From assembly GCF_003790525.1 (NCBI RefSeq), contig NZ_CP033635.1: a stretch of 64,000 nt of DNA; one strand, written 5' to 3'. A program made the position numbers and the translations under genes. A model generated the notes under the pieces. That model saw nothing but the letters and a program-made list of their open reading frames with translations. It did no database searches and was not told where the DNA came from. This document shows positions 41,327 to 59,872 of this stretch, one piece after another. Every line of letters begins with the position of its first letter. Within the stretch, counting starts at the first letter, position 1. The stretch is from Escherichia coli. Its GTDB lineage: Bacteria; Pseudomonadota; Gammaproteobacteria; Enterobacterales; Enterobacteriaceae.

Positions 41327-41433
41327 GAAACGCTGGCGGGTTCGCAAGCGGTACGCAATCTGAGCGTTCCTGAAGGGTTAATAAACAACCAGATGAAAAG
41401 AAAGGGTTAATACTTTAGGTGGGATGTTATTTT

Positions 41434-41458
41434 ACCGGATGGCTACTCGCCATCCGGT
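41434..41458. repeat. Perfect 10-bp inverted repeat between the mrcB stop and the fhuA promoter
   Basis: ACCGGATGGC-TACTC-GCCATCCGGT; flanked by A/T runs in the wrong orientation for a minus-strand intrinsic terminator. Confidence 0.35.
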
Positions 41459-41474
41459 ATGTCACGCTTAGACG

Positions 41475-51384: not shown

Positions 51385-51544
51385 TTTATTTATATTACGA
51401 ATATAAATATTTTCTGAAAATCACACCGACTCTCTTTCCTTAATAACGATTTTAGTTTAAAAATTTTTTATAGAAACATAATATAAATTCCCGCTGAGAA
51501 ATATCAATCCCATCGCCATACCCTAACTAATTGCACTTGTGAAC

Positions 51545-51579
51545 TTAAATTTACTTAATCTTGAATTAAGTAAATTTAA
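51545..51579. repeat. Perfect 15-bp inverted repeat in the AT-rich folK / yadN intergenic region
   Basis: TTAAATTTACTTAAT-CTTGA-ATTAAGTAAATTTAA, about 175 nt upstream of the yadN start. Confidence 0.45.
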
Positions 51580-57641: not shown

Positions 57642-57694
57642 CATACCAAAAACAAATTACTGCGACTATTACAGCAGTGGATGGTGGAGTGAAA

Positions 57695-58966
57695 ATGAAG
57701 ACATTCTTCAGATATTTTCTTTTTTTAATTCTGTGCTTGAGTTGTTATACCGCGAGTGCTGGCACTGATGATTTCGTAGGATATGTTGTTGGGAATAACT
57801 ACGGCGTTGGTCCGTCAGATCAAAAATGGAGAGAAACCGGGCCAAATGGAGATGTGACAGTCGTGTTCAGGTATGGTACCAGTACAAATAATTTAGTATT
57901 TTATAAACCAACACAACTGGGTCCAACAGGGGTGAAATTACATTGGAGTCAGTTAGATACTGCTTCTGGCGGAGGCTTTCTTTATTGTAACAGAAGCAAT
58001 AACACCAGTGGCGGGGCAATGCGTATCGAAAATGCAATGGTTGACTCTGGAAAAAGATATGGTAACCATAAACTATTCAATACATCTGTTCCCGGTTTGT
58101 ATTATACAATATTAATTTCAAATATGTGGTCAGCTTACGGTACTGTAACTAACGTTAGTTCACCAGGAATATATATTGGTGATTCTGCAGAACAATATTT
58201 TTCATGGTACAATCCAAGCGAAAGCATATTATACCAAAGTTGTAACAATGCCAACACATCCAGCAAATATTGGGCTGTAGGCGGTATTTATCAAAATCTT
58301 ACCATCGAATTTTATACAGATACCAACTTTGATCCAACAGTAACTCAACAAGTTTCATTATCGCGCTCATCAAACTATTTATATTCATTTAAAGCTTATG
58401 GTGCTGGTATCGGCATTAACGAACACAGCTATTTTCTTCGAGTTGATTTTGACCTACTAAATATTAAATTAAGTAATCCCACTTGTTTTACAGCTATGTT
58501 AAGTGGAACATCTGTTACTGGTTCTACGGTAAAAATGGGCGAGTATAGTGAAGCACAAATAAGAAACGGTGCCACACCGGTTCCTTTTGATATTTCACTT
58601 CAAAACTGCGTTCGTGTGACTAATATCGAGACAAAATTAGTTTCAACAAAGGTTGGTACTGAAAACAGGCAACTCCTTGGTAACACTCTCACAGGAAATG
58701 GCGCAGCAAAAGGCGTTGGGGTATTGATTGAAGGATTAGCAAACAGTAAAAGTGCCCTCATGATACTGAAACCTAATGATTCAACTTCTGTTTATAAAGA
58801 TAATACGGGCCAGACGCAGAATAACGATTCAGATGCGATTTACCCGGAAGATGACGGTATAACGTATCCACTTCATTTCCAGGCTACATTAAAACAAGAC
58901 GGGAATATTGCTATTGAACCCGGCGAATTTAAAGCCACCAGCACTTTTCAGGTTACCTACCCCTGA
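57695..58966 (+). CDS. yadC: Fimbrial tip adhesin-like protein
   Basis: ATG at 57695 ([22 protein letters not shown] signal peptide) inside a GTG-initiated ORF; about 423 aa, two-domain adhesin-like protein with pilin-like C-terminus (...FQVTYP). Confidence 0.75.
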
Positions 58967-58972
58967 TAACAC

Positions 58973-59003
58973 TATCGCACCGCCAGACAACGGCGGTGCG
59001 ATA
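58973..59003. repeat. Perfect 12-bp GC-rich inverted repeat downstream of yadC
   Basis: TATCGCACCGCC-AGACAAC-GGCGGTGCGATA 7 nt after the yadC stop; no U tract on either strand. Confidence 0.4.
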
Positions 59004-59077
59004 CGGATAAATCATTGCCCCCACCAATGTGACTGATAAAATGCGAGACAGCACAACATTATTTATCAGGATACGCT

Positions 59078-59872
59078 ATGAAACCAACCACGATTGCTTC
59101 ATTGCAGAAATGCAAGCAGGACAAAAAACGTTTCGCAACCATCACCGCTTACGACTATAGCTTCGCAAAACTGTTTGCCGAAGAAGGACTTAACGTCATG
59201 CTGGTAGGCGATTCACTGGGCATGACGGTTCAGGGGCATGACTCCACGCTACCGGTTACCGTTGCCGATATCGCCTATCACACCGCCGCTGTGCGTCGCG
59301 GCGCGCCAAACTGCCTTCTGCTGGCTGACCTGCCATTTATGGCGTATGCCACGCCGGAACAAGCCTTTGAAAACGCCGCAACGGTAATGCGTGCCGGAGC
59401 CAACATGGTCAAAATTGAAGGCGGTGAGTGGCTGGTGGAAACCGTACAAATGCTGACCGAACGTGCCGTTCCAGTTTGTGGTCATTTAGGCCTAACCCCA
59501 CAGTCAGTAAATATTTTCGGTGGCTACAAAGTCCAGGGGCGCGGCGATGAAGCGGGAGATCAACTGCTCAGCGATGCATTGGCATTAGAAGCTGCTGGGG
59601 CACAGCTGCTGGTACTGGAGTGCGTGCCGGTTGAGCTGGCAAAACGCATTACCGAAGCACTGGCGATCCCGGTTATCGGTATTGGCGCAGGCAACGTCAC
59701 TGACGGGCAAATCCTCGTGATGCACGACGCGTTCGGCATTACCGGCGGTCATATTCCTAAATTCGCCAAAAATTTCCTCGCCGAAACGGGCGACATCCGC
59801 GCGGCTGTGCGGCAGTATATGGCTGAAGTGGAGTCCGGCGTTTACCCGGGCGAAGAACACAGTTTCCATTAA
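59078..59872 (+). CDS. panB: 3-methyl-2-oxobutanoate hydroxymethyltransferase
   Basis: 264-aa [36 protein letters not shown]..., recognised as PanB. Confidence 0.95.

What the first reader, a model, noticed from the sequence alone, without database searches (positions are those of the whole stretch)
58973..59003. Strong U-tract-less hairpin between the fimbrial operon and panB
A perfect 12-bp GC-rich inverted repeat sits 7 nt after the yadC stop and about 75 nt before panB. It has no U tract on either strand, so it is not a canonical intrinsic terminator. It might act as an RNA stability element at the 3-prime end of the yad transcript, as an insulator between yad and panBC, or as a protein-binding palindrome.
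Basis: seen in the sequence. Interest (0 to 1): 0.3.

Follow-up and report, generated by a model that had tools for sequence, protein, structure and literature searches.

The report
Hairpin ending the yad fimbrial operon
This is a real RNA stem-loop that E. coli keeps right after the last gene of the yad fimbrial operon; it most likely marks and protects the end of that operon's mRNA just upstream of the panB promoter, which makes it an ordinary kind of element.

Summary
A perfect 12-bp, GC-rich inverted repeat with a 7-nt loop lies at 58973-59003. It starts on the 7th nucleotide after the yadC-type adhesin stop codon, ends 74 nt before panB, and has no U tract on either strand. The window is E. 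coli SMS-3-5.

The hairpin is not chance. Its fold z-score is -8, and about 0.03 such repeats are expected per 64 kb.

In 106 E. coli loci (27 haplotypes) the sequence differs a lot but the pairing is kept. Four stem pairs show changes on both sides, and one column pair has five pair types.

Non-Watson-Crick states are mostly G.U on the + strand (14, against 2 A.C). The consensus fold is -23.2 kcal/mol on the + strand and -15.3 on the - strand. Selection therefore acts on the RNA sense to yadC, not on a protein-binding DNA palindrome.

The element is single-copy, so it is not a REP element, and it has no Rfam match.

The best reading is an operon-end stem-loop of the known U-tract-less class. 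It would block 3'-to-5' exonucleases and may partly stop read-through into panBC. No 3'-end data exist because the operon is H-NS-silenced, so stabiliser and terminator roles cannot be separated here. It is a new member of a known kind and of low interest.

The parts
57677..58966 (+). Last gene of the yad chaperone-usher operon, a yadC-type tip-adhesin allele. Its transcript carries the hairpin.
   Evidence: ORF of 429 aa. RefSeq annotates it as 'fimbrial-like adhesin' WP_223718407.1 in E. coli SMS-3-5. The K-12 orthologue is annotated yadC.
58964..58969 (+). Tandem in-frame stop codons TGA TAA of the adhesin gene.
   Evidence: Read directly from the sequence.
58973..58984 (+). 5' arm of the stem (TATCGCACCGCC).
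   Evidence: The core GCACCGCC is the conserved part. The base ATC co-varies with the 3' arm.
58985..58991 (+). Loop (AGACAAC).
   Evidence: This is the most variable segment of the region, with haplotype diversity 0.50.
58992..59003 (+). 3' arm of the stem (GGCGGTGCGATA).
59015..59042 (+). Predicted sigma-70 promoter of panBC: TTGCCC, 16-nt spacer, extended -10 TGaTAAAAT. It starts 11 nt after the hairpin. It is context, not part of the hairpin.
   Evidence: Consensus scan. The segment 59010-59077 is nearly invariant among 46 haplotypes, diversity 0.046. Divergent alleles keep a TTGCC / TAGAAT pair. The promoter is predicted, not shown.
59078..59872 (+). panB, the downstream co-oriented housekeeping gene.

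Best explanation
The inverted repeat encodes an RNA stem-loop on the strand sense to yadC. It sits at the 3' end of the yadN-ecpD-htrE-yadMLKC fimbrial transcript.

I think it belongs to the U-tract-less operon-end stem-loops. Once transcribed it folds into a stem of 12-16 bp, at -19 to -30 kcal/mol depending on the allele. That stem would halt 3'-to-5' exonucleases (PNPase, RNase II) trimming back from a downstream end. That end could come from Rho-dependent termination, or from endonuclease cleavage of read-through yad-panBC RNA. The result would be a defined, stabilised 3' end for the yad mRNA, a few nucleotides after the stop codon and just upstream of the panB promoter. A pause or partial termination that limits read-through into panBC is possible but secondary.

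Shown here:
- The hairpin exists.
- It is single-copy.
- Its structure is conserved with compensatory changes.
- The signal is sense-strand-specific.
- No U tract is present.

Inferred:
- The exonuclease-barrier role.
- Where transcription actually ends.
For: (1) Thermodynamics. The minimum free energy is -22.3 kcal/mol, z = -8.1.

(2) Conservation of structure rather than sequence. I examined 106 E. coli genome and metagenome loci, giving 27 haplotypes of the 70 nt upstream of the promoter. All carry a hairpin at this place except one disrupted by IS1.
- On 17 distinct variants the 11 core pairs are almost always paired.
- Four core pairs show changes on both sides.
- Columns 22-46 carry CG, AU, GC, UA and UG.
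- The covariation score is 0.288 against 0.162 +/- 0.016 in shuffles (0 of 500 reach it). It falls to 0.04-0.20 when the partners are slid by 1-3 columns.
- One intermediate-to-compensated series is visible: ACCGCA/TGCGGT, then ACCGCA/TGCAGT (a C.A mismatch), then ACTGCA/TGCAGT.

(3) Strand.
- Non-Watson-Crick states are 14 G.U-type against 2 A.C-type at the variant level. I count these as roughly 8-9 against 2 independent events.
- The RNAalifold consensus is -23.2 kcal/mol on the + strand and -15.3 on the - strand.
- The + strand here has C>G, so replication-linked mutation bias would push the other way. That last step is inference.

(4) Position. The hairpin always lies between the adhesin stop codon (4-24 nt away) and the panB promoter. 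Its distance to the promoter varies between alleles.

(5) Divergent operon-end alleles.
- ATCC 8739 and strain 277 keep a homologous stem base, TCGCACC...GGTGCGA, with a different top.
- Strain GF4-3 has an unrelated 8-bp hairpin flanked by an A tract and UUUU. This looks like a canonical terminator at the same place.

(6) Relaxed selection. Three strains with a yadC pseudogene carry the C.A mismatch (93_0495, 99_0288, 10159). Two strains with the same hairpin type and an intact gene have the perfect stem.

(7) The class is known. [quoted passage not shown] These stem-loops protect against PNPase and RNase II (Dar & Sorek 2018, PMC6061677).

(8) Such hairpins are common. Two other perfect gene-end hairpins in this window also lack a U tail.
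Against: - No transcript 3' end has been mapped here. The E. coli K-12 Term-seq supplements I could search list no sense-strand end at yadC. The operon is H-NS-silenced in laboratory conditions (PMC13245861), so this absence is uninformative.
- Only 74 nt separate the hairpin from panB.
- The C-over-G enrichment downstream is mild: 1.3-1.5 against a window median of 1.1 and a 90th percentile of 1.6. A Rho loading site is therefore not evident.
- Read-through RNA would soon be covered by ribosomes translating panB.
- The wobble asymmetry rests on about 10 independent events, one-sided binomial p about 0.03-0.06 (my estimate).
- Part of the covariation signal could reflect arm-to-arm template switching at the DNA level.
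- One common allele with an intact adhesin gene (M00057 type) carries a C.U mismatch.
Confidence: 0.55

Rival explanations
1. It is a non-canonical or weak intrinsic terminator that acts as an insulator. The hairpin itself, possibly helped by NusA or NusG, releases RNA polymerase. This shields the housekeeping panBC promoter from read-through when the silenced yad operon is switched on.
For: - The stem is strong and GC-rich, and lies directly after the operon's last stop codon and 11 nt before a promoter.
- The tail is A/U-rich (GGAUAAAUCAUU).
- Divergent alleles carry partial U runs: ATCC 8739 has AAACUUUCUUC.
- GF4-3 has a canonical-looking hairpin with UUUU at the same place.
- The selection for sense-strand RNA structure fits this role as well as the stabiliser role.
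Against: - The main alleles have no U tract: 0-3 U in the first 8 nt after the stem. The terminator scan does not call the site.
- From established knowledge (not tested here), E. coli RNA polymerase needs a U tract for efficient intrinsic release.
- The tail sequence differs between alleles, so there is no sign of selection on it.
Confidence: 0.25
2. The palindrome has no function. It persists through DNA-level arm-to-arm template switching (quasi-palindrome correction), which mimics compensatory evolution.
For: - Palindromes are known template-switch hotspots in E. coli (from my own knowledge, not tested here).
- The loops of two allele families look like reverse complements of each other. 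The reverse complement of ATCATCT is AGATGAT, which matches TGATAAT at 5 of 7 positions, against 1 of 7 in direct orientation (read). This hints at DNA-level flipping.
- The operon is usually silent, so selection on its RNA is intermittent.
Against: - Template switching produces perfect complementarity. Yet G.T states are frequent and persist, for example in the K-12 allele, the commonest type among the loci I sampled.
- The asymmetry between G.T and A.C states is not expected from a process acting on DNA.
- A hairpin is present even in alleles whose sequence is unrelated, such as GF4-3.
- The stem core is much less diverse (0.10-0.17) than the loop and linker (0.40-0.50).
Confidence: 0.08
3. 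It is a DNA palindrome bound by a dimeric regulator of the panB promoter, or by RcdA, which gave a SELEX-chip peak in yadC.
For: - It is a perfect palindrome ending about 11 nt upstream of the predicted -35 element.
- An RcdA SELEX-chip peak was reported at panB<yadC<yadK (PMC3535384).
Against: - The sequence of the arms changes between lineages while the pairing is kept.
- Strand-asymmetric wobble states are not expected for a protein site.
- The distance to the promoter differs between alleles, 11 against about 28 nt.
- The RcdA box TTGTnnACA is absent from the hairpin.
Confidence: 0.04
4. It is a terminator or stabiliser for an antisense transcript on the - strand, reading from panB towards yadC.
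For: - The hairpin also folds on the - strand, at -27.5 kcal/mol with flanks.
- The - strand tail GUGUUAUC has slightly more U.
- Rho-dependent antisense transcription inside yadC is recorded in K-12.
Against: - Most wobble states would be A.C mismatches on the - strand.
- The consensus fold is 8 kcal/mol weaker on the - strand.
- No gene on the - strand ends here.
Confidence: 0.03

Closest known systems
U-tract-less stem-loops at the steady-state 3' ends of Rho-dependent E. coli transcripts (Dar & Sorek 2018, NAR; PMC6061677)
   Same: It is a stable GC-rich stem-loop with terminator-like stem and loop sizes and no U tract, placed just after the end of a coding region. The proposed role is the same: a barrier to PNPase and RNase II that defines the mRNA 3' end.
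   Different: No mapped 3' end or bicyclomycin sensitivity is available for this site. The downstream C>G enrichment is weak. A co-oriented promoter and gene follow within 75 nt, so the downstream end may come from processing of read-through RNA rather than from Rho.
Canonical intrinsic (Rho-independent) terminators
   Same: It has a GC-rich hairpin a few nucleotides after the last stop codon of an operon. One divergent E. coli lineage (GF4-3) has a hairpin plus UUUU at the same place.
   Different: The defining U tract is missing in all the main alleles.
REP/BIME elements acting as intercistronic mRNA stabilisers (for example malE-malF)
   Same: It is an extragenic palindrome between co-oriented genes that could protect upstream mRNA from 3' exonucleases.
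   Different: It is single-copy per genome, is not a dispersed repeat family, and does not match the REP consensus as I recall it.
I-shaped (U-less) terminator hairpins described in Actinobacteria
   Same: It is a hairpin without a U tail at a gene end.
   Different: The organism differs, and the autonomous termination activity of such hairpins is itself disputed. I did not test this here.

Membership tests
Canonical intrinsic terminator | GC-rich stem-loop shortly after the end of a transcription unit | tested here: met
   The stem is 12 bp with 8 G-C pairs, starts on the 7th nt after the stop codon, and folds at -22.3 kcal/mol.
Canonical intrinsic terminator | U tract directly after the stem | tested here: not met
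   The tail is CGGAUAAAUC. The scan does not call the site on either strand. Other main alleles have 0-3 U in the first 8 nt.
Canonical intrinsic terminator | Releases RNA polymerase without protein factors | not testable with these tools
   This needs in vitro transcription.
Protective stem-loop at the 3' end of a Rho-dependent transcript (Dar & Sorek class) | Stable stem-loop not followed by a U-rich sequence | tested here: met
.
Protective stem-loop at the 3' end of a Rho-dependent transcript (Dar & Sorek class) | Dominant RNA 3' end mapped just downstream of the stem | not testable with these tools
   The K-12 Term-seq supplements I searched give no sense-strand end at yadC. The operon is H-NS-silenced.
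Protective stem-loop at the 3' end of a Rho-dependent transcript (Dar & Sorek class) | C-over-G enrichment (Rho loading site) downstream | tested here: inconclusive
   C/G is 1.3-1.5 in 78-nt windows after the stem. The window median is 1.1 and the 90th percentile is 1.6.
Protective stem-loop at the 3' end of a Rho-dependent transcript (Dar & Sorek class) | Read-through on bicyclomycin, and longer tails in pnp or rnb mutants | not testable with these tools
   No data are held for an expressed yad operon.
REP / BIME element | Dispersed multi-copy family with a shared consensus | tested here: not met
   There is one match in the window at up to 3 mismatches. The SMS-3-5 type occurs in 687 genomes, median 1 place per genome.
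Rfam RNA families | Match to a curated covariance model | tested here: not met
   The only hit is a chance-level miRNA match at E = 6.1, elsewhere in the region.
Structured RNA element under selection (general) | Pairs kept through compensatory changes, with strand-specific G.U states | tested here: met
RcdA (TetR-type regulator) operator | RcdA box TTGTnnACA | tested here: not met
   The box is given and is absent from 58973-59003.

The most novel reading that the evidence does not exclude
The hairpin might be a true U-tract-independent terminator in E. coli. It would insulate a housekeeping promoter from a horizontally variable, H-NS-silenced fimbrial operon. Its palindrome might also flip its loop and convert its arms by template switching, so that it evolves together with the hypervariable yadC adhesin alleles. 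It might even mark the recombination boundary of those alleles.
Probability: 0.07. Interest if true: 0.45.

Novelty: new member of a known kind. Interest (0 to 1): 0.15.

Why it matters
The practical value is small. The hairpin gives an annotated 3' boundary for the yad fimbrial transcript. yad is an ExPEC virulence-associated operon that is induced by serum and silenced by H-NS. The hairpin should be kept or deliberately removed when the operon is deleted or when reporters are built next to panBC. It is also a clean natural example of compensatory evolution and strand-specific wobble in an operon-end hairpin within a single species. It does not open a new question.

Tried and rejected
- Rfam scan of 58500-59500 at E up to 10 found nothing relevant.
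- REP or mobile repeat is rejected because the element is single-copy in the window and per genome.
- A genome-contig scan with the panB-promoter 24-mer returned only one E. coli contig.
- Term-seq and 3'-end supplements gave nothing usable. Adams 2021 lists only an antisense Rho-dependent region inside yadC. TERMITe has no entry. The supplements of Dar & Sorek 2018 and of the 3'-UTR valves paper are not held.
- RNA-seq tables for hns mutants do not allow a test of insulation. yadC rises in delta-hns, but panB is not in the held part of the file, so read-through into panB could not be compared.
- RcdA binding is rejected because the box does not match.
- A search for a Rho loading site by C/G ratio and YC dimers was inconclusive.
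- Jones et al. 1993 on the panB promoter is not held. A literature search for a mapped panB start site found nothing for E. coli. The promoter therefore remains a prediction.
- The first megablast with a 201-nt query matched only 4147 of 5426 genomes. A longer query showed the promoter and panB in 5405 genomes. I attribute the shortfall to seeding, not to absence of the region.

Full report
**What is there**

The window is E. coli SMS-3-5 (NC_010498.1, 100% identity), read in reverse orientation relative to the record. The local gene order on the + strand is as follows:
- folK
- the seven-gene yad chaperone-usher fimbrial operon, ending in a yadC-type tip-adhesin gene at 57677-58966
- panB (59078-59872)
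- panC

The adhesin gene ends in TGA (58964-58966) followed by an in-frame TAA. Six nucleotides later comes TATCGCACCGCC-AGACAAC-GGCGGTGCGATA at 58973-59003. This is a perfect 12-bp inverted repeat with a 7-nt loop and 8 G-C pairs. The panB ATG lies 74 nt after the stem.

**More than chance**

- As RNA the 31-mer folds at -22.3 kcal/mol, against -6.4 +/- 2.0 for shuffles, z = -8.1.
- Only 1 of 30 shuffles of the whole 64-kb window contained any perfect inverted repeat of at least 12 bp with a 3-10 nt loop.
- No U tract follows on either strand. The + tail is CGGAUAAAUC and the - tail is GUGUUAUCAG. The terminator scan does not call the site.
- There is no Rfam match.
- The sequence is single-copy in the window. 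The SMS-3-5 type occurs in 687 complete genomes, at a median of one place each. It is not a REP-like repeat.

**Surroundings**

A sigma-70-like promoter with an extended -10 starts 11 nt after the stem: TTGCCC, 16-nt spacer, TGaTAAAAT, at 59015-59042. The segment 59010-59077 is nearly invariant among 46 haplotypes, with diversity 0.046. By comparison, diversity is:
- 0.13-0.35 in the 3' part of the adhesin gene
- 0.40 in the linker between stop codon and stem
- 0.33-0.35 at the stem base
- 0.10-0.17 in the stem core
- 0.50 in the loop

The hairpin thus lies at the junction of the highly variable adhesin allele and the conserved panB promoter. Its own sequence is constrained only where pairing matters.

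**Conservation of structure**

I gathered the junction from three sources:
- 21 complete genomes, most of them picked from the 'spread' hit lists, plus CFT073 fetched by accession
- one species-representative contig
- 91 metagenome contigs retrieved with a panB-promoter 24-mer

The 106 loci that carry the main promoter type give 27 distinct haplotypes of the 70 nt upstream. Every one has a hairpin at this position, except strain VL40, where IS1 replaced the 5' arm. Predicted energies are -19 to -30 kcal/mol.

The arms differ between lineages but remain complementary. The stem-base variants seen are:

| 5' arm base | 3' arm base | Example |
|---|---|---|
| ATCGCA | TGCGAT | SMS-3-5, CFT073 |
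| GCAGCA | TGCTGC | K-12, whose stem is 16 bp |
| ACCGCA | TGCGGT | L022 |
| ACAGCA | TGCTGT | L084 |
| ACTGCA | TGCAGT | L099 |
| GTGGCA | TGCCAC | L009 |
| GTTGCA | TGCAAC | L019 |

On an alignment of 17 distinct variants:
- The 11 core pairs are almost fully paired.
- Four of them show changes on both sides.
- Columns 22-46 carry five standard pair types.
- The covariation score is 0.288, against 0.162 +/- 0.016 in column shuffles (0 of 500 reach it).
- The score is 0.04-0.20 when the 3' partners are slid by 1-3 columns.

These are related sequences from one species, so the shuffle control overstates significance. The slid-partner control and the several distinct pair types do not depend on that.

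**Which strand**

Non-Watson-Crick states in the stem are 14 G.U-type against 2 A.C-type at the variant level, plus 3 other mismatches. By my count this corresponds to about 8-9 against 2 independent events, one-sided binomial p roughly 0.03-0.06. G.U states pair only in RNA of the + strand, which is sense to yadC.

The RNAalifold consensus is -23.2 kcal/mol for the + strand and -15.3 for the reverse complement of the same alignment.

The + strand here has C>G, the composition of a lagging strand. Replication-linked mutation bias should therefore favour G-to-A changes, which give A.C states, rather than C-to-T. That step is inference from the established strand-skew pattern. A protein-binding DNA palindrome or a cruciform would not show this asymmetry.

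**Further support**

- Three strains whose adhesin gene is a pseudogene with an internal stop carry a C.A mismatch in the stem (93_0495, 99_0288, 10159). Strains H5 and 2013C-4974, with the same hairpin type and an intact gene, have the perfect stem. One metagenome contig, L099, has the compensated ACTGCA/TGCAGT form.
- In strains with a different, shorter tip-adhesin gene and a different intergenic sequence (ATCC 8739, strain 277), a hairpin with the same base (TCGCACC...GGTGCGA) but a different top lies 22-24 nt after the stop codon. It is about 28 nt from the promoter.
- In the still more divergent strain GF4-3, an unrelated 8-bp hairpin flanked by AAAA and UUUU occupies the same slot. It looks like a canonical terminator.

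The position between the last stop codon and the panB promoter is what is conserved. This is what one expects of a transcript-end element.

**How it most likely works**

E. coli intrinsic termination needs a U tract, which the main alleles lack. [quoted passage not shown] Those stem-loops protect the transcripts from PNPase and RNase II (Dar & Sorek 2018). Extragenic palindromes between co-oriented genes can do the same for upstream mRNA segments (my own knowledge of the REP literature).

I therefore favour an exonuclease barrier that defines and stabilises the 3' end of the yad mRNA (confidence 0.55). The downstream end would be created by Rho or by cleavage of read-through yad-panBC RNA.

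A non-canonical terminator or insulator role is the main rival (0.25), and the two roles are not mutually exclusive. The more general statement, that this is a sense-strand RNA hairpin kept by selection at the end of the yad operon, I hold at about 0.85.

**What could not be settled**

- The yad operon is H-NS-silenced in laboratory culture and is induced in delta-hns strains or by serum (PMC13245861; PMC12460168).
- The K-12 3'-end data I could search contain no sense-strand end here.
- Downstream C/G enrichment is mild.
- Stabiliser, terminator and their combination therefore remain unseparated.
- Arm-to-arm template switching could contribute to the apparent compensation. The loops of two allele families look inverted relative to each other: the reverse complement of ATCATCT is AGATGAT, which matches TGATAAT at 5 of 7 positions. 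With 7-nt loops this is only a hint.

**Verdict**

The element is an ordinary operon-end stem-loop of a known kind that had not, as far as I could find, been described for this locus. It is of low interest.

Noticed in passing
window 51545-51579 and 51387-51409: A perfect 15-bp, almost pure A/T palindrome (TTAAATTTACTTAAT-CTTGA-ATTAAGTAAATTTAA) lies in the folK-yadN intergenic region, which holds the yad promoter. A 10-bp A/T-only palindrome followed by TTTT starts 3 nt after the folK stop codon. Either could be a regulatory or H-NS-related site, or the folK terminator.
   Followed up: no
window 59004-59400 (panB 5' part): panB of SMS-3-5 is only about 90.7% identical to K-12 panB over this stretch. 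Across 5405 genomes the identities fall mostly in the 90-95% band (4089), with smaller groups at 95-99% (421), at or above 99% (306) and 80-90% (603). By my own expectation that is unusually deep divergence for a housekeeping gene. It perhaps hitch-hikes with the diversifying yadC alleles. The promoter between the two genes is far more conserved.
   Followed up: partly
L007 (strain VL40) and L111 (strain DAX4), equivalent to window 58973-59077: Insertion sequences hit this short intergenic region. In VL40, IS1 replaces the 5' arm of the hairpin. In DAX4, an IS3-family element sits between the predicted -10 element and panB.
   Followed up: partly
L004, L006, L107 (strains 93_0495, 99_0288, 10159): The yadC-type adhesin gene is annotated as a pseudogene with an internal stop in these large-genome strains. 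The same strains carry a C.A mismatch in the hairpin.
   Followed up: partly
hairpin loop, window 58985-58991 and equivalents in other alleles: Loops fall into two families that look like reverse complements of each other. One is AGACAAC / TGGTAAT / TGATAAT. The other is ATCATCT / ACCTTCT / AGCTTCT. The reverse complement of ATCATCT matches TGATAAT at 5 of 7 positions. This suggests loop inversion between the inverted arms (sequences). The loops are too short for a firm test.
   Followed up: partly
window 26503-26530 and 41433-41459: Two other perfect 10-11-bp GC-rich hairpins lie 8-15 nt after the ends of - strand genes. They also lack a U-rich tail in the relevant orientation, so U-less gene-end hairpins are common in this window.
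   Followed up: no
yadC-panB junction in the E. coli genome collection: 17 of the matching places are on records labelled plasmids, and a few genomes have up to 3 copies of the junction. I did not look at them.
   Followed up: no
CFT073 equivalent of window 58970-59019: The published lambda-Red primer used to delete the whole yad operon in CFT073 uses the hairpin and its downstream flank as its homology arm (GGCAATGATTTATCCGTATCGCACCGCCGTTGTCTGGCGGTGCGATAGTG...). Those delta-yad mutants therefore keep the hairpin in front of panB (PMC13245861 supplement).
   Followed up: no
K-12 yadC, antisense strand (MG1655 coordinate 150722, + strand): A Rho-dependent (bicyclomycin-sensitive) antisense region inside yadC, and another in yadL, are listed in the Adams et al. 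2021 supplement.
   Followed up: no
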